A stretch of 64,000 nt of DNA from Candidatus Chazhemtobacterium aquaticus (GCF_009936135.1 NZ_CP047901.1:475643-539642); one strand, 5' to 3'; positions 1,831 through 32,125 are shown, counted from the first letter of the stretch. Notes: generated from the sequence alone by a model not told the origin. Numbers and translations are program-made.

Positions 1831-2349
1831 CTATCTTGTGACATCCCTCCCTATTCCATCTCGAAATCCATCAAACTTTTTTCTCATGTCTTGTCTGTTT
1901 CGTATTCCGATATCCCAGGAATCCAGTCCTTTGTCAACAATAACCATGCCCGAAGTGTGTCTCAAACCAATGTTTAGGTTGGCTGCATCAACATAGTATC
2001 TTTTCCCCTTTATCTCAATCTCGGCAATCACATGTCCAACAATTGGATCACCACCTTTTTCCAGCCATTCCCGACTTAACATCTCCACATACCAGGCTTT
2101 TATCCCCGCCGCTCTCGCCAATACTAAAAACACCAGTGTAAAATCCGTACAACCTGTTGCCCAGCCATTGCCTACAATCTCTGCCGCCGTTCTGCGCCTA
2201 AATACCTCAGGCTTCCTCTCTGATCGTATGTTGCCCTTAATCCATTCCAAAATTTCCAAAACTGATTCCACGTCATTCCCAAACTTATTTTCCTCCACTA
2301 CTCTTTCTATCTCCCCAGTTATCTTCGTCTGTTCACCGCTTTCCATCAT
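1831..2349 (-). CDS. Transglutaminase-like (Cys-His-Asp) superfamily protein.
   Basis: A catalytic-Cys motif GWATGCTDFTLVFLVLARAAGI is followed by His (GHVIAEI) and Asp (YYVDAAN) in the order seen in transglutaminase-like cysteine proteases. There is no signal peptide. Confidence 0.6.
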   Translation of the reverse strand: MMESGEQTKITGEIERVVEENKFGNDVESVLEILEWIKGNIRSERKPEVFRRRTAAEIVGNGWATGCTDFTLVFLVLARAAGIKAWYVEMLSREWLEKGGDPIVGHVIAEIEIKGKRYYVDAANLNIGLRHTSGMVIVDKGLDSWDIGIRNRQDMRKKFDGFRDGIGRDVTR

Positions 2350-4006
2350 TTTTGAATTTAAATGAATTCATTAATAACCAGAATATTATCACAGCACCAC
2401 CGATAACACTCATTATATTAGCCCCCTTTTCAATATTTGTTTGTCTAATGGTTAGTACCACCTCATTTACACCACTGGGTAACTCAATCTCAATATACCC
2501 ACCATCCTCACTTGGCTTGCTCTCAACCACCTCTCCGTTTACCTCTACCTGCCAGAGGGGTAGATAATACTTTGATATCTCAACCTTTCCCTCATTCTCC
2601 ATCTCCACACTCCACCTACCTCTCTCTCCATGTCGTACTTCTTTAGTTTCCAGTTTGGCAATACCCTCACCCCGTATCTGCCAATCAACCTGCCAGTTTT
2701 GTTGAGATGCTGTTTTAGGTAGAGCCTCCCAGGCAATATCAGTTGATCCTGGTTGTAACCTGGCTTCTTGTTCCCACTTACTTAGAGGTTGCATTCCCCC
2801 GGTCAGTGTTCTAGTGATGTTTCGATTGCTCACTCCTGCCAGTAGCAGTAGCAACACCATCATCCACCAGCCGCTTTTCTCCACCAACCAAGCAGCCAAA
2901 AAGCTCACTCCAACCGCACTCACAATCAACCATCGCCAGGGAAATTGAATCTGCGCTAGGATACTAACTTTTTGCCACAACCATTCGGATACTGGTAGCA
3001 TCAGGTACAAGCCAAGCAGTACCACTCCGCCAGATACTAGTGCCATCTTTGTTTTTGTTTTCTCTTTGTTTTGTTCTTTTCTAAAGAATGTCACCAGTAA
3101 AGCTATTACCGACAGTCCGAACACTACCCACTGGGTGATCCCCAGCATGAAGGACATGCCATCATCGTCTCCACTCTCCGAGTATCCATACCCCCATCTG
3201 GAATATATTACTTGTCTTAAGGTCGGCCAGTGTTGTTGATAATCAACTGCATTGTGGTTAGACAACGCTACCCAGTCCATCTCCGCAATTGCCGGCAGCC
3301 AAAACCAGGCTGCCATCACCACCCCCAGCAATCCAAAGATGATTAGTTTAAACCAACCTTTTTTGTACCATCTGGCTAGTGCCAAACCATAAATCGCGAT
3401 TACTGGAGCAAAGATCAAGGCAGTTACATTATGTGCTGGGATCAAGCCAGCTACCCCAAGACTTACCAAACCCAGATACTTTTCTTTTTGTTTAACCATC
3501 ACCTCACTCATTGCCCACAGTACCACCATCGCCATTGCCCAAGCCAAAATAGTTCCAAAAGATCCAATCACTAAAGTAATCAAAAATCGATAGGGGACAA
3601 GTAGTAGCAGTACTGCTCCGGTTAACGCCGCTTTTTTCTCAAAAAAGCATCTCATCCACTTATATCCTGCCCACACCGACAGCCAGCTACACAGCAACAC
3701 CACCACCTTGATTGCATCTTGAGCTGTTAACCCCAGTAACACCAAGCCGGCAGTAAAGTAGTGGAATAAAGGATATGCGTAATTAAATACTGGATAGCCT
3801 CGACCATAAGCCAGCTCATCAGCCATTCGCACCGGAAACTGACCTAAAGAAAGTTCATGAGCCATCGCCTCCACTCTGATTAAGTGAAACAGCCCATCAT
3901 GAGACTCATAAAACCCAGGTTGCAGTAATGCCTTAAACACAATCAACACCAGTAGCAGCAAGCCTACTGCTATTCCCACCTCTATTCGTATATCCTTAGT
4001 CTTCAT
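2333..4006 (-). CDS. Polytopic membrane protein with C-terminal extracytoplasmic domain, putative GT-C-like glycosyltransferase (HDGxFHL subfamily).
   Basis: 557 aa. After the first TM the N-terminus carries the motif ESHDGLFHLIRVEAMAH. At least 10 predicted TM segments are followed by a soluble roughly 170-aa tail that ends in a TM. Confidence 0.5.
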   Translation of the reverse strand: MKTKDIRIEVGIAVGLLLLVLIVFKALLQPGFYESHDGLFHLIRVEAMAHELSLGQFPVRMADELAYGRGYPVFNYAYPLFHYFTAGLVLLGLTAQDAIKVVVLLCSWLSVWAGYKWMRCFFEKKAALTGAVLLLLVPYRFLITLVIGSFGTILAWAMAMVVLWAMSEVMVKQKEKYLGLVSLGVAGLIPAHNVTALIFAPVIAIYGLALARWYKKGWFKLIIFGLLGVVMAAWFWLPAIAEMDWVALSNHNAVDYQQHWPTLRQVIYSRWGYGYSESGDDDGMSFMLGITQWVVFGLSVIALLVTFFRKEQNKEKTKTKMALVSGGVVLLGLYLMLPVSEWLWQKVSILAQIQFPWRWLIVSAVGVSFLAAWLVEKSGWWMMVLLLLLAGVSNRNITRTLTGGMQPLSKWEQEARLQPGSTDIAWEALPKTASQQNWQVDWQIRGEGIAKLETKEVRHGERGRWSVEMENEGKVEISKYYLPLWQVEVNGEVVESKPSEDGGYIEIELPSGVNEVVLTIRQTNIEKGANIMSVIGGAVIIFWLLMNSFKFKNDGKR

Positions 4007-4049: not shown

Positions 4050-4943
4050 ATGAAACCAACCATCGACATCATCATCCCTAGCTTCAAAGGCAAGAAGTTA
4101 CTTCAAAGGCACTTACCTGATGTACTCAAACACTCTCCTGATTGCGGCATCATTGTCATCAATGATGGTCCCGATGATGGGACTGTAGAGTACCTAAACA
4201 AGCATTTTCCCAAAATTAAATACCTGCAAAATTCAAAGAATCTAGGTTTCCCCAAAACCATCAATCGGGGAGTAGCTGCCTCTAAAGCTGACTATGTTGT
4301 ATTAATGAACAACGACGTCTCACCTCAAAAAGGATATCTCACCTCTGCTCTTAAGATTTTAGATGATCCCAAAGTCTTTGCCGTTACCTTTAATGAACAG
4401 CAATCCTCCTGGCCAAAAGTTGTCTGGCAGAATGGCAAGATCACTTTTACCAGAGGCCAAGACAAAAACAAGGCCCGCTACTCTGCCTGGGCCAGTGGTG
4501 GCAGCTCCATCATCAAACGCTCTCTCTGGAACAAGCTTGGTGGATTTAATCCTCTTTACTCACCCGGTTACTGGGAAGATATTGATCTAGGTTGGCGGGC
4601 TTGGAAACTGGGTTTCCGCATTGTCTGGGATCCTGACTCCCACGTCATCCATCAGCATGAGTCTACCTTCAAGACTCTGCCTCAAAACAAACTCAATCTC
4701 CTAAAACAAAGAAACGAGCTTTTGTATCACTGGCAGACCATCACCGACTCCAATCTGGTTTTCTCTCACCTTAAGTTCTTACTCACCCACACTCTCGCCC
4801 ATCCGGGTTACATAAAGGTCATATTGGCAGCTCTTCTACTTACTCCTCAGGTAACCAAAAACTATATCAAGCTAAGCAGGCAAGCCAAGGTAACTGATCG
4901 TCATATCCTAAAAACAGTTAACACTCCCTACTCGCGTTCGTAG
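4050..4943 (+). CDS. Glycosyltransferase family 2.
   Basis: N-terminal GT-A signature IIIPSFKGKKLLQRHLP...GIIVINDGPDDGT...NLGFPKTINRGV...VVLMNNDV (DxD-like). Confidence 0.75.
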   Translation: MKPTIDIIIPSFKGKKLLQRHLPDVLKHSPDCGIIVINDGPDDGTVEYLNKHFPKIKYLQNSKNLGFPKTINRGVAASKADYVVLMNNDVSPQKGYLTSALKILDDPKVFAVTFNEQQSSWPKVVWQNGKITFTRGQDKNKARYSAWASGGSSIIKRSLWNKLGGFNPLYSPGYWEDIDLGWRAWKLGFRIVWDPDSHVIHQHESTFKTLPQNKLNLLKQRNELLYHWQTITDSNLVFSHLKFLLTHTLAHPGYIKVILAALLLTPQVTKNYIKLSRQAKVTDRHILKTVNTPYSRS

Positions 4944-4980
4944 TTTCCCCCTTGCTTTCTTTGCTATCATCATCTTAAGG

Positions 4981-5649
4981 GTGATCCCTACTTTCATGGT
5001 CATATCCGGCTCTTTAGTCACCGACCAACTCTTACAACTCCGCTTTCCTACAAGCGGTCAGTTAAGTCACCTTAATTTTTCCATCGGTAATCGAGTCAGT
5101 AAGGGCCAGCTACTAGCCAGGCTTAATCAATCAGATCGTCAGACATATCTTGACCGGGCACTTAAGCAATATGAAAAAACCAGAGCTGAGTTTGATGCCA
5201 AAACCAAGACAGATCTAACCGAATACGAACGCACCAAGCTACAATCAGAACTAGACATCTCAGTCAAAAATGTTGAGCTGGCCAAGATCGATCTTGAAGC
5301 CACCAATCTCTACTCTCCCATCACTGGACTTGTTGTCGCCGCCGACTCTGGTGCCGTCGGCATGAATATCACCCCAGCCGCCTTTACCATTACCTTGCTT
5401 GATCCCAACTCCATATATTTTCAAGGGTATATTGACCAAAAAGACCTCTCCTCCATAGAGGTTAGTCAGCCTGCCACCATTGCACTTACTGCTTACCCGG
5501 ATTTGGTTTTAACCGGTCAAGTTACCAGAGTAGGTTTCTTACCCCACAAAAGCAGTTATCCAGTTGCTGTCTCCATTGATGGTGACAAGGACCATCTTCG
5601 TCTTGGTCTAACCGGCAAAGCCACTCTCACCCATGGCCAAGAAAAATAG
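4981..5649 (+). CDS. HlyD-family periplasmic adaptor-like protein lacking the N-terminal TM anchor and with only a short coiled-coil hairpin; possible gene remnant.
   Basis: Lipoyl half-motifs (NFSIGNRVSKGQLLARLNQ ... YSPITGLVV) flank a short coiled coil, followed by a beta-barrel-like C-terminal part. It starts with GTG, there is no upstream ORF in frame, and no membrane anchor. Confidence 0.45.
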   Translation: MIPTFMVISGSLVTDQLLQLRFPTSGQLSHLNFSIGNRVSKGQLLARLNQSDRQTYLDRALKQYEKTRAEFDAKTKTDLTEYERTKLQSELDISVKNVELAKIDLEATNLYSPITGLVVAADSGAVGMNITPAAFTITLLDPNSIYFQGYIDQKDLSSIEVSQPATIALTAYPDLVLTGQVTRVGFLPHKSSYPVAVSIDGDKDHLRLGLTGKATLTHGQEK

Positions 5650-6313
5650 CCCGCCATCTGCCAACTTAAAAAAGCTTGTCATCAGTTCTACTCTTGCTGC
5701 CACCTTGGTTGGTTCTGCCTTCTGGATTGTTAACAACAACAAACCAGTTCAACCCCTTCCTTCATATCAAGTCAAACAAGTTATAGACGGTGATACCTTC
5801 ATTACTACCGACAATCAACACGTCAGACTTCGTGATGCCCAGGCTCCTGATCAGGGCCACTGCGGTTACCAACAAGCCAAAGACGAGCTCTCCCGCCTCA
5901 TCTTAAACAAACCTGTATACCTTATTGTCCGCTATCACGACTCCTATCGCCTCTACGCCGATGTCTTCACCCCTGATGGGGAAGTCAACGAGTTAATGAT
6001 CAAAAGCGGTTGGGCCCGATATGACAGAGGCCTAAAACCCCACCTCGTTGCCGCCCGTCAACACGCCCAGCAGCAGAACTTGGGTATATATGGTTCCTGC
6101 ATTACCACCACGCCAGATGACCCCAACTGTCTTATTAAAGGCAACATCAACACCAAGACCGGTGAAAAGATCTACTATTTTCCCGGCTGTATCTCCTACA
6201 ACCGCACCATTGTTGACAAGGATCTAGGCGAGAGTTGGTTTTGTAGCGAGATTGAGGCTCGGCAATCAGGCTTCAGAAAAGCTCTAACCTGTTTCTCCCG
6301 TTCCTGGCCATAA
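5633..6313 (+). CDS. Membrane-anchored thermonuclease (staphylococcal-nuclease-like) with Cys-rich C-terminal module.
   Basis: N-terminal TM (LVISSTLAATLVGSAFWIV). SNase signature VIDGDTFITTDNQHVRLRDAQAPD. The C-terminus has 7 Cys and a GEKIYYFPGCISY motif. Overlaps the previous ORF by 17 nt. Confidence 0.65.
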   Translation: MAKKNSPPSANLKKLVISSTLAATLVGSAFWIVNNNKPVQPLPSYQVKQVIDGDTFITTDNQHVRLRDAQAPDQGHCGYQQAKDELSRLILNKPVYLIVRYHDSYRLYADVFTPDGEVNELMIKSGWARYDRGLKPHLVAARQHAQQQNLGIYGSCITTTPDDPNCLIKGNINTKTGEKIYYFPGCISYNRTIVDKDLGESWFCSEIEARQSGFRKALTCFSRSWP

Positions 6314-6349: not shown

Positions 6350-7162
6350 ATGGATCTCTCCATCATCATCATCACTTACAACTCAAGACAACACATCACT
6401 CCTTTGCTTAACTCAATTAAAAAATCACCCGATCGTCTCAAGAAAGAAATCATTGTTGTTGACAACGCCTCGCGAGATGACTCTGCTGATCTAGCCTCAA
6501 AACATCCATTAAAACCCAAAGTCATTCGCTCCAAGATCAATCAGGGCTTCTCCAAGGCCGTCAATCAGGCAATCAAAGCTTCATCAGGTCAACATCTCCT
6601 CCTGCTCAACCCTGACACGCGCTTAGTGGGCAACTGTTTAACATATCTTCACGACTTTGCTTCAAAAACCTCGCCCCTAGGCGCTGTCTCTCCACGTCTG
6701 CTTGGTCTTAATGGCCGCCCCCAGCCTTCCGTTTTTCGCTTTCCCACTATTATCAATGCCATCCGTCACTACTTCTTTAATTGCCAAAACTGCTTTGGCA
6801 AATACCTGCCACCCAACAAAACCACCAAAGTAGATGTTGCCGTTATGGCTGCCATGCTCATACCCCGTTCTACTATAGATACCGTTGGTGTTCTTGACGA
6901 GAGATTCTTCCTTTACTATGAAGATATTGAGTTTTGCAGACGACTCAAAAAACACCGTCTGCCGCTCTATTACCTTCCCCAGGCTAAAGTTAAACATGCC
7001 CACGGAGCATCAGGCCACTTCCGCTCTCATCTAGACAGCCCCTTACTTAAATCAGCCCAAATCTACCATGGTCGAGTTTACTCTACCCTGCTTAATCTCA
7101 CTCTCTTGCTTGGTCAGAAATGGCAAAAGTTCATCCGTCACCCCCTTCCTAAACTTGGCTAA
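6350..7162 (+). CDS. Glycosyltransferase family 2.
   Basis: LSIIIITYNSRQHI...IIVVDNASRDDS...KINQGFSKAVNQAI...LLLLNPDT. Confidence 0.75.
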   Translation: MDLSIIIITYNSRQHITPLLNSIKKSPDRLKKEIIVVDNASRDDSADLASKHPLKPKVIRSKINQGFSKAVNQAIKASSGQHLLLLNPDTRLVGNCLTYLHDFASKTSPLGAVSPRLLGLNGRPQPSVFRFPTIINAIRHYFFNCQNCFGKYLPPNKTTKVDVAVMAAMLIPRSTIDTVGVLDERFFLYYEDIEFCRRLKKHRLPLYYLPQAKVKHAHGASGHFRSHLDSPLLKSAQIYHGRVYSTLLNLTLLLGQKWQKFIRHPLPKLG

Positions 7163-7201: not shown

Positions 7202-7257
7202 GCACGCCTTAATGCACACCCGTGCATCAACGTACATTTGTTGTAAGGAGGTGTTCT

Positions 7258-7362
7258 ATGTTCACCGGTCGCGCTCGCATTCGTGGAAGTCCGATCAACG
7301 TTTCCGAGAACCTCACGCTGGCGCCATCGAACATCACCATCCTGGGCCGCGAGGAAGGATAG
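7258..7362 (+). CDS. Candidate 34-aa sORF (MFTGRARIRGSPINVSENLTLAPSNITILGREEG) preceded by a near-consensus Shine-Dalgarno; a leader peptide or small protein.
   Basis: AAGGAGGTG at 7245-7253 lies 5-6 nt upstream of the ATG at 7258. Stop is TAG at 7360-7362. The ORF sits inside a GC-rich (about 60%) segment, so it could instead be part of a structured RNA. Confidence 0.25.
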   Translation: MFTGRARIRGSPINVSENLTLAPSNITILGREEG

Positions 7363-7420
7363 CCGCGTCGATCTGCCGCATCCTTGCCTCCAAGTAATAC
7401 AACAGCAGTACCCGCATCAC

Positions 7421-7470
7421 GCCCCGCCGCCTGGCACACACACCGCCGACGACGGGGCCCCTTTTTATCT
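7421..7470 (+). terminator. Intrinsic-terminator-like GC stem followed by a U-tract.
   Basis: GCCCCG (7421-7426) pairs with CGGGGC (7453-7458), followed by CCCTTTTTAT. The palindrome GGGGCCCC is directly followed by TTTTT. Confidence 0.3.
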
Positions 7471-7509
7471 TCCTTTCCTCTTTTTTCTCCGACACGCTAC
7501 AATATCCTT

Positions 7510-8736
7510 GTGAAATTAAAACTTCCTCGCTTAGTCATCTTTTCCATCGTTATTGGTATTCTGCTCCGTCTCATTTTTGCTCTCACCACCTATCACGGTG
7601 ATCTGGCTGCCTTGGTTCTAGCCGGTGACTCTCTGGCGGTTAAACACCAGTTCATCAACTTCTACGAATCGGTTTTCACCATTGGCACTCAGGGTGAGCT
7701 CAAGCTCCCCGACCACCAGATGACCTTCATCTACCAACCCTTAGCCTACTTCATCCCCGGTCTTATCTACCTTCCCTTTGCCGGTGTCTTAAAAGGCTTA
7801 GTCGATGGTTTGCTTCACATCAATCCCTATTTACTGGCAGGCAAATCTCTCTTCTTCCCTCTCCTTATATACAAGCTCCCCCTTATTCTCGCTGACCTAG
7901 GCACTCTCTTCCTGTTGCCTAAATTCTTTACCAAGAAGAAAGATCAACATCTCTCCCTCATCCTCTGGTCGCTTAATCCCCTCGCTATTTACGTCTCTTC
8001 CATGGTCGGCCAGGTTGACGCCATCCTTACCTCCTTCCTGGTTGCCGGACTCCTTGCTTTCAAGAAAGATCGCCTCTACCTCTCCATTTTCTTCTTTACT
8101 CTTTCCGCCTTAGTCAAACCCATTGGTTTGGTTCTTCTTCCTGCCGTTGCCCTTTACCACTACTCGCTTCATCGCCGATTGCTGGATGTCGTCAAACTAG
8201 TTTCCTCAGGACTCCTCACCTATCTTCTGGTCATCGCCCCCTTCCTACCCTCTTTAGCTTATCGCCAGTACACTCTCTTTGCTGAACACATAAACAAGAC
8301 CCTCTTTGCCGGTATTGCCATCTCACCCGGCACCCTCATTCCCTGGTTTTTCATCACCTATGCTGCCATCCTGGTTCTCTTGCTTAATCGCCGTATCTCA
8401 CCTTTCTACGCTCTTGGTGCCGCTTTGTTAGCCAGTCTCTCCTTTACCCATTTCCACCCTCAGTGGTTAATCTGGCTCACTCCTTGGCTCGTTATATACC
8501 TAGTTACCACTAGGGATTGGCTAACTCCTTTGGTTACCCTTTTTTCGTGGTTGGTTATTCTTTTCTCTTTTGAACCAAGCCTAACCTATCATCTTTTCTT
8601 CGGTCTTAATCTAAATCCCATTGCTCTTTCCTCCTCGCTTGCTTCCTTCACTCCTCATTTAATTTCCCTGTCCCGGGCCTGGATTGCTGCCCTTCTGCTC
8701 CATTTCACTCTACAAAAGCCAGCTCATGAAACTTAA
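7510..8736 (+). CDS. Polytopic membrane protein, GT-C-fold glycosyltransferase-like. The start is placed at the in-frame GTG at 7510; the ORF-track start at 7384 lies inside the GC-rich element.
   Basis: At least 10 TM segments. The first loop has an acidic motif (YHGDLAALVLAGDS). A TACAAT box at 7498-7503 lies 6 nt upstream of the GTG, which would fit a leaderless mRNA. The start is uncertain. Confidence 0.45.
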   Translation: MKLKLPRLVIFSIVIGILLRLIFALTTYHGDLAALVLAGDSLAVKHQFINFYESVFTIGTQGELKLPDHQMTFIYQPLAYFIPGLIYLPFAGVLKGLVDGLLHINPYLLAGKSLFFPLLIYKLPLILADLGTLFLLPKFFTKKKDQHLSLILWSLNPLAIYVSSMVGQVDAILTSFLVAGLLAFKKDRLYLSIFFFTLSALVKPIGLVLLPAVALYHYSLHRRLLDVVKLVSSGLLTYLLVIAPFLPSLAYRQYTLFAEHINKTLFAGIAISPGTLIPWFFITYAAILVLLLNRRISPFYALGAALLASLSFTHFHPQWLIWLTPWLVIYLVTTRDWLTPLVTLFSWLVILFSFEPSLTYHLFFGLNLNPIALSSSLASFTPHLISLSRAWIAALLLHFTLQKPAHET

Positions 8737-10456
8737 AAACAAATCTCTCCTTGCCCTGCTTATCCTTACCCTTCTCGGGTTTATTCTCCGCTTTACCAAT
8801 CTTGACCAAAACCCTCCTGCTCTTAACTGGGATGAGGTCAGTCATGGCTACAACGCCTTCTCTATCCTAAAAACCGGTAAGGATGAGTGGGGTGTTGCCT
8901 TCCCCTTAATTTTCCGTGCCTTTGGTGATTACAAACTCCCTTTATACATCTACCTCACTGTTATTCCAGTCGCCCTCTTTGGCCTTAACGCCATTTCAGT
9001 AAGGTTAGTCTCGGTCCTAGCTGGCACCCTGGCTATTCCCGGCATCTACTTGCTTACCCGTCAGCTTTTTCCCAAGGTAGCTTTAAATTTTAAATTCAAA
9101 AAGCGATCTGTTTCTTTGTCATTACCTTTTCTTGCAGCTTTCTTTTTAAGCTTACTTCCTTGGCACCTCTTTATATCCCGCCCTGCTCTTGAAGCCAATC
9201 TAGGCCTGACTCTTTTCCTCTTTGCCGTTTACTTCCTGCTTAAATTCAAAGACAATCCCAAGCATTTACTCATCTCCTCCATCTTTTTCTCTCTCACTCT
9301 TCACACCTACAACACCTACCGAGTCTTGACCCCTCTCTTTCTCTTTCTCTACTTCCTACCTAAAGTTAAACCCTCATCTATCAAGCGTTTCTTAAATAAA
9401 CAACAACCTCGCCTGCTTTGGTTGTCACTAGCCGTATTTTTTCTTTCCTTCTCTCTAGTTATTTCCCAGACTCTTAGTGGCACTGGCACTGCCCGTTACC
9501 AGAAACTAGCTATCCTCAATGACCAGACAGTTTTCCAGATAGGGGAGGCTCGTCAAAACAGCTCTCTGCCGCCAGTGTTGGCTCGACTTCGTCACAACCG
9601 TCCTCTTTTCTTTGTAGAGCAGTTTGCCCACAACTATCTTAACTACTTCACTCCCCAGTTCCTCTATCAATCCAACGGAGCCCAGACCCAGTTCGCTATT
9701 CCTTACAAGAATCTGCTTACCCTTAATCTAACCATCTTGGCTGTATTGGGTTTCTTTGTCGTAATTAAACATATTAAGAACTCTTCCCATCGTCTGGTTT
9801 TACTTCTACTCGCCTTAAGTCCGGCCGCCGCTGCCATTACTGCCAGTCCGCCGCAGGCCCTGCGTCCTACTCCATTAATCATTCCCCTGACCTTGTTAGC
9901 CGCTCTTGGATTCTTTGTAGTAGTCAATCTTTTTTCCTCTCGCAACTGGGCCAAGTCAGCCGTTGCCTTTATTCTGCTTGTCAGTTTCATGTCCTCATCC
10001 TTTAGCTATCTCTCTACCTACTGGAACTCATATCGATTTGAGTACTCCACCTCCTGGCAATATGGTCATCAACAGCTTTTCGAGTATCTTGGGAAAAATC
10101 AGGATCAGTACGACCGCATTTTCATCACCAAGTATCACGGTGAGCCCCACATCTTTTATGCTTTCTTTATGAAGCTTAACCCTCATCTGCTTCAGCCCGG
10201 TGGTGACAGTTTGCGCTTTAAGCAATCAGATTGGTACTGGACTGATCGTATTGGCAAAGTCTATTTCGTCAACGACTGGGACATTCCCTACTTCTCTCCC
10301 GCCCCTGCCATTCCGCTTGAGTCAGGTGATCTTATACCCACCTCCAATGCCTTGCTTATCACCTCAGTTGAGCACTTGCCATCAAACACAGAGATTGTTG
10401 AGTTAATCGAGGACTTATCTGGTAACATCGCCTTTGTAGTTGCCAGATTTAAGTAA
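8726..10456 (+). CDS. GT39/PMT/ArnT-like GT-C membrane glycosyltransferase (paralog 1).
   Basis: Motifs LRFTNLDQNPPALNWDEVSHGYNAFSIL (DE motif in the first loop) and FRAFGDYKLPLY. Multi-TM with a C-terminal soluble domain containing WQYGHQQL...YDRIFI. ATG at 8726 (MKLKNKSL) overlaps the upstream stop by 11 nt. Confidence 0.7.
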   Translation: MKLKNKSLLALLILTLLGFILRFTNLDQNPPALNWDEVSHGYNAFSILKTGKDEWGVAFPLIFRAFGDYKLPLYIYLTVIPVALFGLNAISVRLVSVLAGTLAIPGIYLLTRQLFPKVALNFKFKKRSVSLSLPFLAAFFLSLLPWHLFISRPALEANLGLTLFLFAVYFLLKFKDNPKHLLISSIFFSLTLHTYNTYRVLTPLFLFLYFLPKVKPSSIKRFLNKQQPRLLWLSLAVFFLSFSLVISQTLSGTGTARYQKLAILNDQTVFQIGEARQNSSLPPVLARLRHNRPLFFVEQFAHNYLNYFTPQFLYQSNGAQTQFAIPYKNLLTLNLTILAVLGFFVVIKHIKNSSHRLVLLLLALSPAAAAITASPPQALRPTPLIIPLTLLAALGFFVVVNLFSSRNWAKSAVAFILLVSFMSSSFSYLSTYWNSYRFEYSTSWQYGHQQLFEYLGKNQDQYDRIFITKYHGEPHIFYAFFMKLNPHLLQPGGDSLRFKQSDWYWTDRIGKVYFVNDWDIPYFSPAPAIPLESGDLIPTSNALLITSVEHLPSNTEIVELIEDLSGNIAFVVARFK

Positions 10457-13602: not shown

Positions 13603-15285
13603 ATGGGTATGAAGTTATCTAAAGACTTAATCATAGTCCTTCTTCTAGCCGCCTTGCTTCGTCTTCCTTTCTTAGGCCAATATCCTGCTGGACTTAACGC
13701 TGATGAAGCAGCTCTTGGCTACAATGCCTACTCCCTCATTCAAACTGGTGCTGATGAACACGGTGTCTCCTGGCCCCTGGTTTTCCGCTCCTTTGATGAC
13801 TACAAACCGCCTCTCTATGTATATATTGTTCTTCCCTTTGTCTACCTTTTTGGCTTAACGCCTTTTGTTGTTCGTCTCCCTTCTGCTTTGCTAGGTATTG
13901 CCACCGTCTATCTCACCTATCTCCTGACTCATCAGCTTTTTCCCAAAAAAGAGATTGTCTTAAACAAGAAAAAGTTAAGTTTAAGTTTACTGGCAACTTT
14001 CTTACTTGCCATCAGCCCCTGGCATCTCCACTTTTCTCGCGGTGCTTGGGAAGTCAATGTCGCCCTCTTTTTCCTCACGCTTGGCCTTTACACCTTCTTT
14101 AAAGCTTTAAACTCTCCTCGCTTCTATATCCTCTCCGCCCTTTCCTTTGTCGCCTCCCTATATACCTACCACTCCATTCGCATCATCGCGCCCCTGCTTT
14201 TGTTAGTTTTGGTCATTCTTCACCACAAACAACTACTCACTCAGCTTAAAAACTCTGCCTCTAGAGGTTTCCTGTTGGTCGCCTTTGTCCTCGGTCTGTT
14301 CTTAACCCTTCCTCTAGCTTCTCAAATGCTCTCCCAGGAAGGTCAGTCCCGTTTCTCTGGTGTCTCCATTTTTGCCGACTCCGGTCCTCTCTGGGAAGCT
14401 TTAGAGAAACGCCGTCTAAGTCCCGATCCTGACTCGCTCTTAACCAGACTTCGCTACAACCGTTACTTGAGTTACTCCAAGCGATTTGTAGAAAACTATC
14501 TGTCTCACTATCAACCCGACTTCCTCTTTATCTCCGGTGATGAGATAGCCAGAAGCAAGGTTCCAGGTTTTGGCCAAAGCTTTGTTATATTCGCCCCCTT
14601 CTTCTACCTTGGCCTCGTTGTTTTGTTCTTTAAGCGCACTTCGGCTCATCGCTTTCTTTTTGCCTGGTTGTTACTAGCCCCCTTAGCTGCCGCCCTTACC
14701 TTTCAGTCTCCCCATGCCTTAAGAAGTCAAAACATGGTTATCCCTTTTAGTCTCACTCTTGGTATTGGCATCCTCACCTTTTTTTCCTGGCTTAAGGGCT
14801 TTAAACCCAAGAGCGTCCTTATTATCTTTGTCCTCTTAGGCCTTCTTACCGCCAAACACTTCATCTCTTACATAAACAGCTACTATTTCCACTACCCCAA
14901 AGTCTATCCCTTTGCCTGGCAGTATGGTTTTGACCAACTGGCAGAGTATTTAAGCCCCATTCAGTCTGACTACGACACCATCGTCATCTCTGACCGCTAT
15001 GATCAGCCATATATCCTGCTTGCCTTCTTCCTTAAATACGATCCCAACAGATTGCAGCAAGAGCTAGTCTTTTCTGATCGTGATAACTTTGGTTTTTCTA
15101 CCGGCAGAAGCTTTGGCAATTACAAGTTCCACCGCATCACCGACCAGGACTTTGATTTACCCAACACCTTGATTGTGGTTGCCGATGAACCGGTTCCAGA
15201 TGGCCTTACTCCCATCCACACCCTCTACTATCCCAACCAGCAACCTGTCTTCACCATCTATCAGACCTCTAAATTGGTAGAATAA
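13603..15285 (+). CDS. GT39/PMT/ArnT-like GT-C membrane glycosyltransferase (paralog 3).
   Basis: Motifs LRLPFLGQYPAGLNADEAALGYNAYSLIQTGADEHG and FRSFDDYKPPLYVYI; C-terminal WQYGFDQLAEYLSPIQSDYDTIVI. Confidence 0.7.
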   Translation: MGMKLSKDLIIVLLLAALLRLPFLGQYPAGLNADEAALGYNAYSLIQTGADEHGVSWPLVFRSFDDYKPPLYVYIVLPFVYLFGLTPFVVRLPSALLGIATVYLTYLLTHQLFPKKEIVLNKKKLSLSLLATFLLAISPWHLHFSRGAWEVNVALFFLTLGLYTFFKALNSPRFYILSALSFVASLYTYHSIRIIAPLLLLVLVILHHKQLLTQLKNSASRGFLLVAFVLGLFLTLPLASQMLSQEGQSRFSGVSIFADSGPLWEALEKRRLSPDPDSLLTRLRYNRYLSYSKRFVENYLSHYQPDFLFISGDEIARSKVPGFGQSFVIFAPFFYLGLVVLFFKRTSAHRFLFAWLLLAPLAAALTFQSPHALRSQNMVIPFSLTLGIGILTFFSWLKGFKPKSVLIIFVLLGLLTAKHFISYINSYYFHYPKVYPFAWQYGFDQLAEYLSPIQSDYDTIVISDRYDQPYILLAFFLKYDPNRLQQELVFSDRDNFGFSTGRSFGNYKFHRITDQDFDLPNTLIVVADEPVPDGLTPIHTLYYPNQQPVFTIYQTSKLVE

Positions 15286-17217: not shown

Positions 17218-18699
17218 CTATCTCACCACCGTCAGCCAACGCCAGAAGAAGGGGATCCGTATCTCCGACAACCAGGTTGATGGTCCCATCGGGCAGGTAA
17301 TACTCTCACAATCAATCGAGAAAGCGGAATAGATGTATTTAGCGTTAAAATACGCTCCCGCTAGGATGACTCCAACAAGCAATACTCTTGATATGTTTTT
17401 AAGCATTTCCCTTGGCCAGATCATGTTGATTAAAGAAGGGGAGACCAGTAGTAGGTAAACAACTCTAAATACGTTCGGATCCGTTGTTGGTCGAAAAGCG
17501 TTATGTAAGAAGTATCTGCCGGACAGTAACAAGCCTACCGCCAAAGCCATATTCACAAACCTTACGTCTTTCAGGAATTTAATTAACCCCAATCCTCCCA
17601 TAATCGCCATTAAAGGAAACATTGGGTAGCGGTACCACGGCAGCATATCCTGCTCGGTTCCCGAGAACACCGCCACCATCAGCCAGTAAATCCAGAACAG
17701 TACGACCCACCCAAGCTCCTTACTCTTCTTGCTCTTAAAGGCAAAAAAGAGAGTGCTAAGCAAAGCAAAAATATACCAGCCGTCAAACATCGGCCAGATA
17801 TCATATCCAGGCGAGCTAAAGATGTAAGCAAGTCCAGTCCAGCCGGCAAATCTTACCCCCTGGATCTCCACGATTGTTTTAAACAATTCCCAGTCAAGCC
17901 AGTAGCCATAAGCTACGAACAAGCCAACTCCAGCCAAGGTTAAAAGCAAGATAATAAGAACATCAGCCCAGCGCTTTTTTCTAGCCGACACAAACATCAT
18001 TAAAGGAGCAATAAAAAAACCAGTTGGCTTCATCAATCCGCCAATCACCGCCATCACTCCCCACACTCCCGCCATCCACTTACTTGGTTTCTTGTCATAT
18101 TTAGGCATCATTGCCAAAGACATCAATGTCATTAAGGCAATTATGTTTTCCGGTACCGACAAACGGGAGCCAAACACCATGATTGGCGACACTCCATAAA
18201 CCAACATTGCCATATATCCAGCCCAAAATCCAAAGAAGTGATAACCCACCCAGAACACCAGTCCAAGCGTTATCAAACTAGCCAACACGCTAGGTATTCT
18301 CGTGTGGGAAGTTGGCAGCACCATCTCCCTATCATCTCCATACAGATGAGCCGCTCCCCCAGCTAGCAGTGAGTAAAGCGGTGGCTCATCCACCCACGGC
18401 TTGTATAGTTTGGCCGGCAAATACACTCCGTTTTTATCTCCTACAATCCCATCAAACACCAGATTTTCATCCGGGTAATCAAGGGTTGACCAAGACACCG
18501 GTTCTCCAGTCTCAATCAAATGTATCCCAGACCAACCATAAAGTAGCTCCTCAGCATGACTCGCACCCGGCACCCGGTCATAATCATGCAGCCTTATTAC
18601 CGCCAAAAACAAGAAAGTTATCACCAAAAGCCAGAACCATCCGCCTTTAAACCACTTAATCATCCCCCTTATTCTCTTTAAATTAAACTCATCAGTCAA
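17218..18699 (-). CDS. ArnT/GT39-related GT-C membrane glycosyltransferase.
   Basis: HDYDRVPGASHAEELLYGWSG (acidic loop motif) and WVDEPPLY. At least 10 TM segments. Confidence 0.55.
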   Translation of the reverse strand: MTDEFNLKRIRGMIKWFKGGWFWLLVITFLFLAVIRLHDYDRVPGASHAEELLYGWSGIHLIETGEPVSWSTLDYPDENLVFDGIVGDKNGVYLPAKLYKPWVDEPPLYSLLAGGAAHLYGDDREMVLPTSHTRIPSVLASLITLGLVFWVGYHFFGFWAGYMAMLVYGVSPIMVFGSRLSVPENIIALMTLMSLAMMPKYDKKPSKWMAGVWGVMAVIGGLMKPTGFFIAPLMMFVSARKKRWADVLIILLLTLAGVGLFVAYGYWLDWELFKTIVEIQGVRFAGWTGLAYIFSSPGYDIWPMFDGWYIFALLSTLFFAFKSKKSKELGWVVLFWIYWLMVAVFSGTEQDMLPWYRYPMFPLMAIMGGLGLIKFLKDVRFVNMALAVGLLLSGRYFLHNAFRPTTDPNVFRVVYLLLVSPSLINMIWPREMLKNISRVLLVGVILAGAYFNAKYIYSAFSIDCESITCPMGPSTWLSEIRIPFFWRWLTVVR

Positions 18700-25848: not shown

Positions 25849-26697
25849 ATGATCCTTATGAAATCCGCTCTCCCATTAGTCTCCGTGGTTATTACCACCA
25901 AGAACGAGGAAAAACACATTGTCTCTTGTCTTAAGTCCATCAAGAATCAGGACTATCCTCGGGAGAAAATTGAGATAATCGTTGTTGACAACCACTCTAC
26001 TGATGACACTGTCAAACTAGCCAAGCAATACACCAAGAACATTTTCACCAAAGGTCCAGAGAGGTCAGCTCAGAGAAACTATGGCATGATCACCAAGAGT
26101 CACGGTCAGTACGTCATGTACGTAGACGCTGATATGGAGTTAAGTAAAAAAGTTATATCTTCATGTGTTTCCAAAGTTACTAAAAATCCTGACATCATTG
26201 GTTTGTATATTCGAGAGATAGTTACTGGGGACAGCTACTGGAGTAAGGTCAGGCGTTTTGAACGCAGTTTCTATGAGGGTACGGTTATAGACTGCGTTAG
26301 GTTTATTAAAAAGTCTGCTTTTGTAAAAGTAAAAGGTTTTGATAAACAAATAACCGGCGGTGAAGATTGGGATCTGGACAAAAAAATCCGTCAACTTGGG
26401 AAAGTTGATTTAATAAAACAGCCTATCTATCACAATGAAGCTGAGTTTAACCTAAAGAAGTATCTGGCTAAAAAAAGTTACTATTCGAAAGGTCTTGACA
26501 TATATATTAAAAAGTGGGGAAAAGATGACCCTGATGTTAAGAAACAGTTCAGCCCCATATACAGGTTAGTAGTGGTGTTTTTAGAAAGAGGAAAATGGCA
26601 AAAACTACTACACCAACCAAGACTAGTGTTGGGTATGGCCTTATTAAGGATTGGAGTAGGATTCTCCTATGTTAAGCATCAGGTTATTTCGAAATAA
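25849..26697 (+). CDS. Glycosyltransferase family 2.
   Basis: LVSVVITTKNEEKHIVSCLKSIKNQDYPREKIEIIVVDNHSTDDT...YVDADM. Confidence 0.7.
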   Translation: MILMKSALPLVSVVITTKNEEKHIVSCLKSIKNQDYPREKIEIIVVDNHSTDDTVKLAKQYTKNIFTKGPERSAQRNYGMITKSHGQYVMYVDADMELSKKVISSCVSKVTKNPDIIGLYIREIVTGDSYWSKVRRFERSFYEGTVIDCVRFIKKSAFVKVKGFDKQITGGEDWDLDKKIRQLGKVDLIKQPIYHNEAEFNLKKYLAKKSYYSKGLDIYIKKWGKDDPDVKKQFSPIYRLVVVFLERGKWQKLLHQPRLVLGMALLRIGVGFSYVKHQVISK

Positions 26698-26706
26698 TTT
26701 CCAAAT

Positions 26707-27861
26707 ATGAGAAAACAAACAACGCCGAATATATCTTCACCAAGCAAAACAACAGTTTTGCAGACCGCTCATGTTACAAAGGTTTATGGACCAGTTCAAT
26801 CACTAGCAAAATTCATATCAGAAAAAAAGCGCTTTGATTTTTATCAAATAATTCATCCACTTAACAACAATGCCTCTCCAGAGTCTGTTTTTTTACGAAA
26901 CGGCAAAAAAATTAGTGAAGTTAGGATAAACACATATTCCATATTCCGCTACTTCCTAGATTTTATTATCACCTCATACTGGCTATTTAAACTACCCAAG
27001 AAAATAGATGTCGGATTCGGTATGAATAGCTTTGATACGCTTCCCTTGGTGATTTTTCGCCACAAGATAAACAAAATCGTATTTTTTAACACCGACTTCG
27101 CCAGAAACAGATTTAATAACAAACTAATTAATTCAATATATGTATCCATTGATAAATATTGCGCCCAGAAAGCAGATCTGGTTTGTTGTAATACAAACAG
27201 GACCATCGACGCCAGGATTGATGAAGGAATAAATAAAAACAAACTACTTTTAACGCCGAATGGCGTCGATTTTGACAAAATCGGAAAAATCAAGCCAAAA
27301 ACAAAATACAGTAAATCGCTCATATATGTCGGCTACCTTTCAAAAGAGCATGGACTTCAGACGGTAATAAAAGAATTACCCAAACTAGATCTGAAGCTTA
27401 TCGTTATAGGTAGCGGAGAATACGAGCGGAAACTTAAAAATCTGGTAAAAAAATTAAACCTCGACGACTCAGTCACGTTTTTGGGAAATCTTAAGCATCA
27501 GCAAGTTATCAATATATTGAAAAAATTTGGGGGCTTTGGATTAGCTCCATACAACAACAGTAGTGAATGGACTTACTATTGCGATCCAGTTAAAATTAAA
27601 GAATATCTTGCTTGCTACGTACCAGTTATCATTTCCTCAAGACCTGAAGTTAGTGAAACCATTGCTAGAGAAAAATTAGGATTTAGATATACAAATGAAG
27701 ATGAAATTAAAACAATCCTGGAGAAAGTTAGGAAAATGTCAGAAAAGGAATACAAAGAAACTCAGGAGAATATTAGCAAGTTTCGTAACGAATTTAACTT
27801 AAACACTATTTATCAAAATATTTGGCAAAGAATAAATCAGCCCGTATACACACATGAGTAA
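26707..27861 (+). CDS. Glycosyltransferase family 4-like (GT-B), very AT-rich.
   Basis: C-terminal GT-B half with IYVGYLSKEHGLQ...GFGLAPY...KEYLACYVPVI. GC about 33%. Confidence 0.55.
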   Translation: MRKQTTPNISSPSKTTVLQTAHVTKVYGPVQSLAKFISEKKRFDFYQIIHPLNNNASPESVFLRNGKKISEVRINTYSIFRYFLDFIITSYWLFKLPKKIDVGFGMNSFDTLPLVIFRHKINKIVFFNTDFARNRFNNKLINSIYVSIDKYCAQKADLVCCNTNRTIDARIDEGINKNKLLLTPNGVDFDKIGKIKPKTKYSKSLIYVGYLSKEHGLQTVIKELPKLDLKLIVIGSGEYERKLKNLVKKLNLDDSVTFLGNLKHQQVINILKKFGGFGLAPYNNSSEWTYYCDPVKIKEYLACYVPVIISSRPEVSETIAREKLGFRYTNEDEIKTILEKVRKMSEKEYKETQENISKFRNEFNLNTIYQNIWQRINQPVYTHE

Positions 27862-28525
27862 AACAATAAGAAATTTGCAAGGCGGAGATAACAACTTACC
27901 TGATGATTTGTACAAGCTGACAAGTCACTGGATCAAAGACGGAGATAGCATATTAAACTTAGGTTGTGGAAGCCAGTTCAATTTTGAAAAAATAATTTCA
28001 AAAGAAAAAGATGTTCAAATCACATCAATAGACATTGTCTCGACAAATAAACCATCATATGTCAATCGATTCGTTACTAAAGATGTAGAAAAACCATTTT
28101 CCCTAAACAAAAAGTACGATGTTGTTACTTTTTTTGAACTGATCGAACACATAGATAATACTGATGTTCTCTTAAGGAACTGCTATCGAAACCTTAAAAA
28201 TAATGGTCTACTTATTTTTTCCTTTCCTAATCTCGCCTCTTTGTATTCACGTATAGAATTATTACTCGGTTACCAACCCCATATTCTTGAGATAAGCAAT
28301 GAAAAAGCCAATCTTGGTACCGGTATTTTTGGAAGAATTAATAATCCCGACGACAATCCAATACATCACATAAGAGGGATTACACACAATGCGATGAAAG
28401 ATATGGTGCATTTTCACAAATTTAAAATATTAAGCATGATAGGTTATGAGTATCGGTTAGGGAAAATATTCAAACACTTTCCGTCCCTGGCTCCTGTCAA
28501 TATTTTTATTCTTAAGAAATTATAA
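27854..28525 (+). CDS. Class I SAM-dependent methyltransferase.
   Basis: Motif I ILNLGCGSQ and motif II/III DVVTFFELIEHIDN...NGLLIFSFP. Confidence 0.65.
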   Translation: MSKTIRNLQGGDNNLPDDLYKLTSHWIKDGDSILNLGCGSQFNFEKIISKEKDVQITSIDIVSTNKPSYVNRFVTKDVEKPFSLNKKYDVVTFFELIEHIDNTDVLLRNCYRNLKNNGLLIFSFPNLASLYSRIELLLGYQPHILEISNEKANLGTGIFGRINNPDDNPIHHIRGITHNAMKDMVHFHKFKILSMIGYEYRLGKIFKHFPSLAPVNIFILKKL

Positions 28526-28627
28526 ATATTTATCGTCAGAATAGCGAAATAAACATGTCCGTACTCTGGTTAATTAAGAACTCGATCAAGCTAGACTTGC
28601 TATTTATCAAAATAAGCAAATAACCAT

Positions 28628-32113: not shown

Positions 32114-32125
32114 ACAATTCAAATC

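What the first reader, a model, noticed from the sequence alone, without database searches (positions are those of the whole stretch)
4981..6313. Anchor-less HlyD-like adaptor fragment fused in an operon with a membrane-anchored, Cys-rich thermonuclease between two GT2 genes
A secretion-adaptor-like ORF lacks its N-terminal TM and has only a short coiled coil. It overlaps by 17 nt a TM-anchored SNase-family nuclease (VIDGDTF...VRLRDAQAPD) carrying a 7-Cys C-terminal module (GEKIYYFPGCISY). An extracellular, membrane-tethered nuclease in a small-genome organism could serve nucleotide scavenging or eDNA/biofilm remodelling. The truncated adaptor may be a relic of the secretion system that once exported it, or a novel periplasmic partner.
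Basis: partly seen in the sequence, partly recalled or inferred. Interest (0 to 1): 0.5.

Follow-up and report, generated by a model that had tools for sequence, protein, structure and literature searches.

The report
Leaderless adaptor-like protein paired with surface nuclease
Two intact, overlapping genes of a Patescibacteria (CPR) bacterium encode an ordinary membrane-tethered DNA/RNA-cutting enzyme and a complete but anchor-less copy of an efflux-pump adaptor; the two kinds of gene turn up side by side in many relatives, so they probably work together in a way not yet described.

Summary
The sequence facts hold. ORF1 (4981/4996-5649) is adaptor (MFP/HlyD)-like. It overlaps by 17 nt ORF2 (5633-6313), which has a TM helix, an SNase domain and a Cys-containing C-terminal module. 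Both sit between two GT2 genes.

The "truncated relic" reading fails.
- ORF1 belongs to a conserved family of about 211-aa leaderless proteins in Microgenomates.
- A confident model shows a complete lipoyl + hairpin + beta-barrel core (TM-score about 0.8 to MexA/MacA).
- dN/dS is 0.06-0.12.
- In most relatives an in-frame stop lies 1-10 codons upstream of the conserved ATG.
- It lacks the anchor and the membrane-proximal domain, and no transporter gene is adjacent.

ORF2 is an ordinary member of a large CPR family of signal-anchored thermonucleases. It has six Cys, not seven, and all are invariant in the family. Its C-terminal module is the catalogued "sunset" domain. D21, R35 and R87 are kept; D40 is Gln and E43 is Asp.

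The new point is linkage. SNase genes lie next to this adaptor-like gene in 8 of about 16 lineages, in four arrangements and with two SNase subtypes.

The nuclease probably scavenges nucleic acids at the cell surface. The adaptor-like protein is probably its accessory, with location and mechanism unresolved. Interest is moderate.

The parts
4050..4943 (+). Upstream GT2 glycosyltransferase. This is context only. It is conserved only in the closest relatives L012 and L013.
   Evidence: Pfam Glycos_transf_2 1.9e-20; synteny clustering.
4977..4984 (+). Shine-Dalgarno-like AAGGGTGA, 11 nt upstream of ATG 4996.
   Evidence: Sequence; the same motif is in L013.
4996..5649 (+). Leaderless MFP-core protein of 217 aa (the maximal ORF runs from GTG 4981). 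It has a barrel-sandwich (lipoyl) domain, an alpha-hairpin and a beta-barrel. It has no TM anchor and no membrane-proximal domain.
   Evidence: Pfam HlyD_D23 and HlyD_3. TIGR01730 matches profile positions 17-247 of 322 at 72 bits, below its cut-off. AF2 pLDDT 93.9. Foldseek TMq 0.80-0.84 to MexA, MacA-MexA and Spr0693. Family alignment. dN/dS 0.06-0.12.
5131..5298 (+). Alpha-helical hairpin of the MFP core (residues 46-101; helices 46-70 and 76-101).
   Evidence: DSSP on the AF2 model.
5633..5649 (+). 17-nt overlap of the two coding sequences. The nuclease ATG lies inside the last codons of the MFP-core gene. Relatives L012 and L013 overlap by 17 nt and L001 by 20 nt.
5633..6313 (+). Signal-anchored thermonuclease of 226 aa: TM helix + SNase + sunset domain.
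5675..5731 (+). N-terminal hydrophobic helix (residues 15-33). It is preceded by four Lys, which predicts an N-in / C-out signal anchor.
   Evidence: AF2 helix 10-34; Kyte-Doolittle 19-residue maximum of 1.90 at residue 15. The topology is inferred from the positive-inside rule.
5765..6097 (+). SNase (OB-fold) catalytic domain (residues 45-155). The active-site loop V64-R-L-R-D-A-Q-A-P-D73 lies at 5822-5851.
6128..6292 (+). C-terminal 'sunset' domain (residues 166-220) with four invariant Cys (166, 186, 204, 220).
   Evidence: NF051437 3.1e-9, matching residues 168-217; 60 of 61 family members match; Cys conservation.
6350..7162 (+). Downstream GT2 glycosyltransferase (context only).
   Evidence: Pfam Glycos_transf_2 2e-21.

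Best explanation
The locus is a two-gene module of a Microgenomates-type Patescibacteria genome. Here it sits inside a large cell-envelope glycosylation cluster.

Gene 2 encodes an ordinary CPR signal-anchored thermonuclease. An N-terminal helix holds it in the membrane (N-in / C-out). The SNase domain and the Cys-containing sunset domain face outward. There it cuts environmental or host DNA/RNA in a Ca2+-dependent way, feeding nucleotide salvage in an organism that cannot make nucleotides.

Gene 1 is not a broken secretion adaptor. It is an intact member of a conserved family of about 211-aa proteins consisting of exactly the lipoyl + hairpin + beta-barrel core of a membrane-fusion protein. 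Both the anchor and the membrane-proximal domain have been removed cleanly.

The two genes are translationally coupled here. Their families are recurrently adjacent in relatives, so I take the MFP core to be an accessory of SNase-type nucleases.

It has no export signal, so it most likely stays on the cytoplasmic side. There it could act as an oligomeric escort or antagonist of the newly made nuclease, or as a coupling factor towards uptake, rather than as a secretion channel.

Shown: gene integrity, fold, lack of signal, purifying selection, recurrent adjacency and the active-site census.
Inferred: topology, Ca2+-dependent nuclease activity, the scavenging role, the cytoplasmic location and the partner role of the MFP core.
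For: MFP core:
- Pfam and NCBIfam hits.
- 44 relatives of 203-224 aa at 41-99% identity, with a conserved start Met.
- An in-frame stop lies 1-10 codons upstream of that ATG in 12 of 14 loci.
- No hydrophobic segment.
- AF2 pLDDT 93.9 and TMq 0.80-0.84 to MexA, MacA-MexA and Spr0693 cores.
- dN/dS 0.06-0.12 against L013 and L001.
- An exhaustive profile search finds many further 203-225-aa leaderless relatives beside anchored forms of about 340 aa.

Nuclease:
- More than 200 relatives of about 220 aa, named thermonuclease family protein, in Patescibacteria, Microgenomates, Shapirobacteria and Beckwithbacteria.
- SNase fold.
- D19, D21, R35 and R87 present in 61 of 61.
- Sunset domain in 60 of 61.

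Linkage:
- An SNase gene is adjacent in 8 of about 16 lineages.
- Co-directional and overlapping: window, L012, L013, L001.
- Co-directional with a gap: L025/L023.
- Reversed order: L019, L020.
- Convergent: L033; also L011 and L027, which carry a different, sunset-less SNase subtype.
- Sources.
- Linked members are scattered over the MFP-core tree.
- Flanking genes are otherwise unrelated.

Literature:
- SNc-type secreted nucleases occur in 15 of 28 Patescibacteria MAGs, with a salvage hypothesis (PMC11495043).
- S. aureus Nuc2 is a signal-anchored, outward-facing SNase (PMC3994088).
Against: - Half of the informative MFP-core loci have no SNase within about 5 kb (L004, L005, L006, L009, L010, L018, L034, L035).
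- Three sampled SNase-sunset loci have no MFP-core neighbour, so neither gene needs the other nearby.
- No precedent exists for a cytoplasmic MFP fold or for an MFP-fold nuclease partner.
- The family is only mildly acidic (median pI 5.4), so it does not look like a DNA mimic.
- Cytoplasmic tails of the linked nucleases are short and not conserved, which argues against a stable cytoplasmic complex with the mature enzyme.
- In the window clade the general-base position is Asp and the D40 position is Gln. In S. aureus nuclease, E43D costs orders of magnitude of activity (from memory), so full activity is not assured.
- Adjacency could be partly inherited synteny.
Confidence: 0.5

Rival explanations
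1. ORF1 is a truncated relic of a HlyD-type secretion system that once exported the nuclease. It is now decaying or non-functional.
For: It lacks a TM anchor and a membrane-proximal domain, and it scores below the TIGR01730 cut-off. A hydrophobic in-frame stretch without a start codon lies just upstream at 4912-4980.
Against: - The same 203-224-aa architecture occurs in 44 relatives down to 41% identity, and further relatives exist.
- dN/dS is 0.06-0.12.
- The three-domain fold is complete and confidently predicted.
- An upstream in-frame stop lies within 1-10 codons in most relatives.
- The upstream hydrophobic translation is absent in L013, where a stop lies 10 codons upstream. It fits the T/C-rich composition of this strand.
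Confidence: 0.03
2. The MFP core is exported by an unrecognised route, or rides on a partner. It assembles outside the membrane as an MFP-like ring or funnel next to the tethered nuclease. It would channel degradation products to an importer encoded elsewhere, in analogy to Mycoplasma SNase-like lipoproteins encoded in ABC-transporter operons.
For: - All characterised MFPs are extracytoplasmic, and the nearest longer relatives (about 340 aa) have N-terminal TM anchors.
- The fold matches oligomerising cores of MexA, MacA and Spr0693.
- SNase-less loci place the gene near nucleobase/nucleoside salvage genes: Xan_ur_permease and CTP synthase in L004, and PNP and the Bmp nucleoside-binding protein in L035.
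Against: - No signal peptide, TM, lipobox or hydrophobic stretch exists in any member.
- There is no membrane-proximal domain, the part that contacts the transporter.
- No ABC, RND or MFS gene is adjacent in any locus.
- CPR bacteria are monoderm and have no TolC-type partner.
Confidence: 0.2
3. There is no functional link. The two genes are neighbours through inherited synteny and local inversions. The MFP core has an unrelated, unknown role.
For: Half of the lineages lack the adjacency, and most SNase-sunset genes stand alone. A second recurrent neighbour exists, rplS with or without yraN, in L004, L035 and L010.
Against: - Adjacency survives down to 35% protein identity while all other flanking genes differ.
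- It occurs in four arrangements and with two SNase subtypes.
- It is scattered across the MFP-core tree.
- With about 1,000 genes per genome, chance adjacency is about 0.2% per independent event.
Confidence: 0.22

Closest known systems
Membrane-fusion / periplasmic adaptor proteins (MexA, AcrA, MacA; Gram-positive Spr0693 and YknX)
   Same: The same three core domains in the same order: barrel-sandwich/lipoyl, alpha-hairpin of MexA-like length, and beta-barrel. Foldseek E about 1e-13 to 1e-15 and TMq up to 0.84. Pfam HlyD_D23 and HlyD_3 are above their cut-offs.
   Different: There is no signal, TM or lipid anchor, and no membrane-proximal domain. No cognate ABC, RND or MFS transporter gene is adjacent. 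It scores below the TIGR01730 cut-off. It is linked to a nuclease gene instead.
Staphylococcus aureus Nuc2 (signal-anchored, surface-exposed thermonuclease; PMC3994088)
   Same: An N-terminal membrane helix is followed by an SNase domain predicted to face outward. The size of the catalytic domain is similar.
   Different: The CPR protein carries an extra C-terminal sunset domain and six invariant Cys. The D40 and E43 equivalents are Gln and Asp. Topology and activity are untested here.
CPR 'thermonuclease family protein' clade (TM + SNase + sunset; e.g. P0024, P0041, P0054, P0094, P0095)
   Same: Full-length homology at 36-91% identity, with the same architecture and the same invariant residues.
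   Different: The window clade (with P0002 and P0003) has RLRDAQ/NAPD instead of the usual RLxNxD/EAPE. It is fused by overlap to the MFP-core gene.
Secreted nuclease with an adjacent cytoplasmic antagonist (B. subtilis NucA/Nin, Anabaena NucA/NuiA, barnase/barstar). This comparison is from memory and is a working analogy only.
   Same: A small leaderless protein is encoded next to an exported nuclease, with variable orientation between lineages.
   Different: The folds are unrelated. The MFP core is not strongly acidic. No inhibition has been shown. Most SNase-sunset genes lack it.
Mycoplasma SNase-like membrane nucleases encoded in ABC-transporter operons (mhp379 and MAG_5040, from memory; Mycoplasma membrane nucleases and salvage, PMC11729948, listed)
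   Same: A small-genome, nucleotide-auxotrophic organism, a surface-tethered nuclease of SNase type, and genetic linkage to a transport-related component.
   Different: Here the linked gene is only an adaptor-like core. No permease or ATPase is present, and the core has no export signal.

Membership tests
MFP / periplasmic adaptor (HlyD, RND_mfp TIGR01730) | Barrel-sandwich (lipoyl) domain | tested here: met
   Pfam HlyD_D23 1.1e-12; precomputed BSH_RND and BSH_CzcB on relatives; AF2 plus Foldseek.
MFP / periplasmic adaptor (HlyD, RND_mfp TIGR01730) | Alpha-helical hairpin | tested here: met
   Helices 46-70 and 76-101 at pLDDT above 90.
MFP / periplasmic adaptor (HlyD, RND_mfp TIGR01730) | Beta-barrel domain | tested here: met
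   Pfam HlyD_3 7.9e-12 over residues 110-209; Foldseek superposition on MexA and MacA cores.
MFP / periplasmic adaptor (HlyD, RND_mfp TIGR01730) | Membrane-proximal domain formed by N- and C-terminal segments | tested here: not met
   The TIGR01730 match stops at profile position 247 of 322. The protein ends a few residues after the last barrel strand. Anchored relatives are about 120 aa longer.
MFP / periplasmic adaptor (HlyD, RND_mfp TIGR01730) | N-terminal signal peptide, TM helix or lipobox (extracytoplasmic location) | tested here: not met
   The conserved Met is followed directly by a beta-strand. Upstream in-frame stops lie close to the ATG. No hydrophobic window is present.
MFP / periplasmic adaptor (HlyD, RND_mfp TIGR01730) | Curated family score cut-off | tested here: inconclusive
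   Pfam cut-offs are passed (48.2 against 30; 46.3 against 22.2). The NCBIfam TIGR01730 cut-off is not passed (72.2 against 94.9).
MFP / periplasmic adaptor (HlyD, RND_mfp TIGR01730) | Genetic linkage to an ABC, RND or MFS inner-membrane transporter | tested here: not met
   None is adjacent in any of the related loci, and the 12 window ORFs scanned beyond the pair and its GT2 flanks that matched Pfam are all other families (ORFs beyond 32 kb were not scanned). No MFP paralogue exists in the window.
Staphylococcal-nuclease (SNase, PF00565) family | SNase OB-fold domain above the family cut-off | tested here: met
Staphylococcal-nuclease (SNase, PF00565) family | Catalytic Arg35 and Arg87 and Ca2+ ligand Asp21 (plus Asp19) | tested here: met
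   R65, R106, D54 and D52 are invariant in 61 of 61 relatives.
Staphylococcal-nuclease (SNase, PF00565) family | Ca2+ ligand Asp40 and general base Glu43 | tested here: inconclusive
   In the window, D40 is Q70 and E43 is D73. In the family, the D40 position is D24/E17/N7/Y7/other, and the E43 position is E55/D4/other. An Asp at 68 is specific to the window clade.
Staphylococcal-nuclease (SNase, PF00565) family | Ca2+-dependent nuclease activity | not testable with these tools
   This needs an enzyme assay.
Sunset domain (NCBIfam NF051437) | Match above the curated cut-off | tested here: met
   36.7 bits against 27 over residues 168-217; 60 of 61 relatives match.
Signal-anchored (type II) surface nuclease like S. 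aureus Nuc2 | N-terminal uncleaved TM helix with the C-terminus outside | tested here: inconclusive
   The hydrophobic helix 15-33 and a Lys-rich N-terminus predict N-in / C-out. Cleavage and topology need PhoA/GFP fusions.

The most novel reading that the evidence does not exclude
The roughly 211-aa leaderless proteins are the first MFP-fold family that works outside a tripartite or ABC export machine. They would be dedicated partners of SNase-type nucleases in Patescibacteria, acting in the cytoplasm as an escort or antagonist, or as a coupling device between surface nucleolysis and uptake.
Probability: 0.25. Interest if true: 0.65.

Novelty: new variant of a known kind. Interest (0 to 1): 0.42.

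Why it matters
CPR/Patescibacteria cannot make nucleotides and must harvest them. The surface nuclease is a likely front end of that harvest, and this idea is already in the literature.

The new part is the linkage. A clean domain-level cut-down of an efflux adaptor (no anchor, no transporter-contact domain, no transporter gene) is conserved, under purifying selection and repeatedly linked to SNase genes.

If the link is functional, it would give the membrane-fusion-protein fold a role outside export machines. It would also identify a second component of nucleic-acid scavenging in ultra-small bacteria.

If the link is not functional, the locus is two ordinary genes, and only the orphan adaptor family remains to be explained.

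Tried and rejected
1. Hidden anchor upstream. The in-frame translation upstream of ORF1 (4912-4980) is hydrophobic (FPLAFFAIIILRVIPTF). It has no ATG, GTG or TTG, it is interrupted in L013, and relatives have stops 1-10 codons upstream. Rejected.
2. Fusion of the two ORFs by a programmed frameshift at GAA-AAA-TAG. The nuclease frame is +1. A fusion is impossible in lineages with reversed or convergent order. Not pursued.
3. Paralogues or a full-length HlyD gene in the window. phmmer against all six-frame ORFs found only the two genes themselves.
4. Defence-system reading, prompted by Fic, PD-(D/E)xK, HicA, Pif1 and RusA neighbours in L001. PADLOC gave no hits. PHROGs gave only weak hits of unknown function.
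5. DNA-mimic inhibitor idea. The family pI has a median of 5.4, so it is not strongly acidic. No support.
6. RNA elements. No Rfam family and no tRNA was found in the window. Promoter and terminator scans were not above shuffles.
7. Literature on the 'sunset domain' and on HlyD in Patescibacteria. Nothing relevant was found.
8. AFDB fold search. The library was not available.

Full report
**1. What is in the sequence**

ORFs on the + strand:

| Coordinates | Product | Note |
|---|---|---|
| 4050-4943 | GT2 | upstream flank |
| 4981-5649 | 222 aa | GTG start |
| 5633-6313 | 226 aa | overlaps the previous ORF |
| 6350-7162 | GT2 | downstream flank |

- The two middle ORFs overlap by 17 nt (5633-5649).
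- Pfam gives HlyD_D23 (1.1e-12) and HlyD_3 (7.9e-12) for the first, SNase (6e-6) for the second, and Glycos_transf_2 for both flanks.
- NCBIfam gives TIGR01730 RND_mfp at 3.6e-20. This is 72 bits, below the 94.9 cut-off, and covers profile positions 17-247 of 322.
- For the nuclease, NCBIfam gives the 'sunset' domain NF051437 (3.1e-9, above its cut-off) on residues 168-217.
Its details need correcting, as set out below.

**2. The adaptor-like gene is complete, not a fragment**

- A search of 5.8 billion proteins found 44 relatives at 41-99% identity. All are 203-224 aa long. The named ones are annotated as adaptor subunits of Patescibacteria, Gottesmanbacteria or Shapirobacteria.
- In a 19-sequence alignment every relative starts at a conserved Met that corresponds to ATG 4996, not GTG 4981.
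- The GTG lies inside an AAGGGTGA Shine-Dalgarno-like motif.
- In 12 of 14 loci an in-frame stop lies 1-10 codons upstream of that ATG, so no anchor can be hidden upstream.
- No 19-residue window reaches TM-like hydrophobicity.
- AlphaFold2 on a 48-sequence alignment gives pLDDT 93.9. The model has a barrel-sandwich domain, a hairpin (helices 46-70 and 76-101) and a beta-barrel.
- Foldseek against the PDB returns only membrane-fusion proteins: MexA, MacA, AcrA, EmrA, ZneB and pneumococcal Spr0693. E-values are about 1e-13 to 1e-15, and TMq reaches 0.84 against crystal cores.
- Compared with anchored relatives of about 340 aa, two things are missing: the N-terminal TM segment and the membrane-proximal domain.
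- dN/dS against L013 and L001 is 0.06 and 0.12.
- An exhaustive profile search of 1.84 billion representatives found 134 clusters at E below 1e-30. They mix anchored forms of about 340 aa, several dozen further leaderless forms of 203-225 aa, and multi-repeat proteins of 740-1300 aa.
- The 'relic' reading is therefore rejected.

**3. The nuclease is an ordinary CPR thermonuclease with a catalogued C-terminal domain**

- More than 200 relatives of about 220 aa exist. The named ones are called thermonuclease family protein, from Patescibacteria, Microgenomates, Shapirobacteria or Beckwithbacteria.
- AF2 (pLDDT 91.7) predicts an N-terminal helix 10-34, an SNase fold and a small C-terminal domain.

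Residues aligned to S. aureus nuclease A, with counts from 61 relatives:

| S. aureus position | Window residue | Family census (61 relatives) |
|---|---|---|
| D19, D21, R35, R87 | conserved | 61 of 61 |
| P42 | conserved | 59 of 61 |
| D40 | Gln70 | D24, E17, N7, Y7, other 6 |
| E43 | Asp73 | E55, D4, other 2 |

- The protein has six Cys (77, 156, 166, 186, 204, 220), not seven. All six are invariant or nearly so.
- The sunset domain is present in 60 of 61 relatives.
- The same NCBIfam domain names C-terminal variants of ribosomal proteins L17, L4 and L20, and of ArfC.
- A Lys-rich N-terminus before the helix predicts N-in / C-out. S. aureus Nuc2 has this topology, shown experimentally (PMC3994088).
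- SNc-type secreted nucleases were reported in 15 of 28 Patescibacteria MAGs and proposed to serve nucleobase salvage (PMC11495043).

**4. Linkage of the two families**

Loci were fetched by exact-protein look-up and by genome and metagenome scans. They were screened with tblastn and ORF clustering. An SNase gene lies directly beside the MFP-core gene in 8 of about 16 lineages.

| Arrangement | Loci |
|---|---|
| Co-directional, overlapping | window, L012, L013 (90-96% identity); L001 (64%) |
| Co-directional, 32-nt gap | L025/L023 (45%) |
| Nuclease first | L019, L020 (46-48%) |
| Convergent, 4-nt overlap | L033 (49%) |
| Convergent, different sunset-less SNase subtype | L011, L027 (35-43%) |

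- No other gene family is shared by these loci. The GT2 flanks are kept only in the closest relatives. L001 instead has Fic, PD-(D/E)xK, HicA, Pif1 and RusA neighbours.
- Linked members are scattered over an NJ tree of the family.
- Eight lineages have no SNase within about 5 kb (L004, L005, L006, L009, L010, L018, L034, L035).
- Three sampled SNase-sunset loci have no MFP core nearby.
- No ABC, RND or MFS transporter gene is adjacent to any MFP core.
- In L004, L035 and L010 the neighbour is rplS, with or without yraN. Nucleobase and nucleoside salvage genes lie a few kb away in L004 and L035.
- Chance adjacency of two given genes in a genome of about 1,000 genes is about 0.2% per independent event. 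At least four distinct arrangements were seen. Inherited synteny remains the main alternative.

**5. Mechanism**

Well supported:
- The nuclease is membrane-tethered and outward-facing.
- It is built like a Ca2+-dependent SNase.
- Its extra C-terminal domain may bind nucleic acid and is held by disulfides or a metal.

Inferred:
- It degrades extracellular nucleic acid for salvage.

For the MFP core:
- The evidence supports a functional tie to SNase nucleases.
- The lack of any export signal means a cytoplasmic location by default.
- My preferred reading is an oligomeric cytoplasmic accessory: an escort or antagonist of the nascent nuclease, or a coupling factor. I give that specific role roughly 0.25-0.3.

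Rivals:
- An exported scaffold or funnel, by an unknown export route: about 0.2.
- No functional link: about 0.2.
- A relic: below 0.05.

Points against the preferred reading:
- The family is not acidic enough to suggest a DNA mimic.
- The cytoplasmic tails of linked nucleases are short and variable.

**6. Novelty and verdict**

- The nuclease is a known kind.
- The sunset module is catalogued.
- The scavenging idea is published.
- The leaderless MFP-core family and its recurrent pairing with SNase genes appear to be undescribed. Two literature searches found nothing relevant.
- This is a new variant of a known kind and is of moderate interest.

Noticed in passing
window 1-64000: The top-strand GC skew is very large, -0.25 overall and down to -0.38 in 2-kb windows. 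It is independent of gene orientation. Third-codon-position skew is -0.28 to -0.58 in + strand genes and mostly +0.2 to +0.46 in - strand genes (one of eight is -0.15). About 48 of 58 large ORFs lie on the C-rich strand. Relatives L012, L013, L011 and L027 share it (-0.22 to -0.30), while other related loci are near zero.
   Followed up: partly
window 26000-32200: A low-GC stretch (0.35-0.39) with near-zero skew lies inside the skewed window. It carries GT2, GT4 and methyltransferase genes and a 1161-aa ORF (28628-32113) with no Pfam hit. It may be a foreign insert in the glycosylation cluster.
   Followed up: no
window 7245-7470: A GC-rich island (up to 0.61) lies between the downstream GT2 gene and the next membrane-protein gene. 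It contains a 34-codon ORF (7258-7362, MFTGRARIRGSPINVSENLTLAPSNITILGREEG) behind a strong AAGGAGGTG Shine-Dalgarno sequence. A GGGGCCCC + T-run follows at about 7455-7470. There is no Rfam hit, and the fold z-score is only -1.6.
   Followed up: partly
window 4996-6313 against L012 982-2314: Synonymous divergence differs about ninefold between the two adjacent genes in the same pair of genomes (MFP core dS 0.046, nuclease dS 0.41). This suggests a recombination breakpoint inside the pair.
   Followed up: no
proteins P0177, P0179, P0241, P0256, P0292, P0303: Proteins of 740-1300 aa contain 4-6 separate matches to the MFP-core profile. They are tandemly repeated adaptor units in one polypeptide, with N-terminal signal-like segments.
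   Followed up: no
L004 5317-6636; L035 2332-3636; L010 2089-3130: Where no SNase is adjacent, the MFP-core gene sits beside rplS, with or without a UPF0102/YraN nuclease-like gene. Nucleobase and nucleoside salvage genes lie a few kb upstream: Xan_ur_permease and CTP synthase in L004, and PNP_UDP_1 and Bmp in L035.
   Followed up: partly
L009, L016, L017 (MFP-like match from about residue 14-19; ORF of only 126 aa): In this lineage the MFP-core gene appears 5'-truncated or frameshifted, so it may be a pseudogene.
   Followed up: no
window 6128-6292 (sunset domain): The sunset module aligns weakly with the Cys4 Zn/DNA-binding domain of E. coli Ada. FPGC aligns with RPSC42, and the last Cys aligns with C72. 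This hints at a nucleic-acid-binding, possibly metal-binding, fold rather than a purely disulfide-knotted one.
   Followed up: partly
window 2333-4006, 7384-10456, 13603-15285, 17218-18699: The window has an unusually dense run of large multi-pass membrane proteins with weak PMT_2 (GT-C-like) hits. They are interleaved with GT2 and GT4 genes and a flippase-like gene. Together these form a cell-envelope glycosylation cluster of more than 25 kb surrounding the finding.
   Followed up: no
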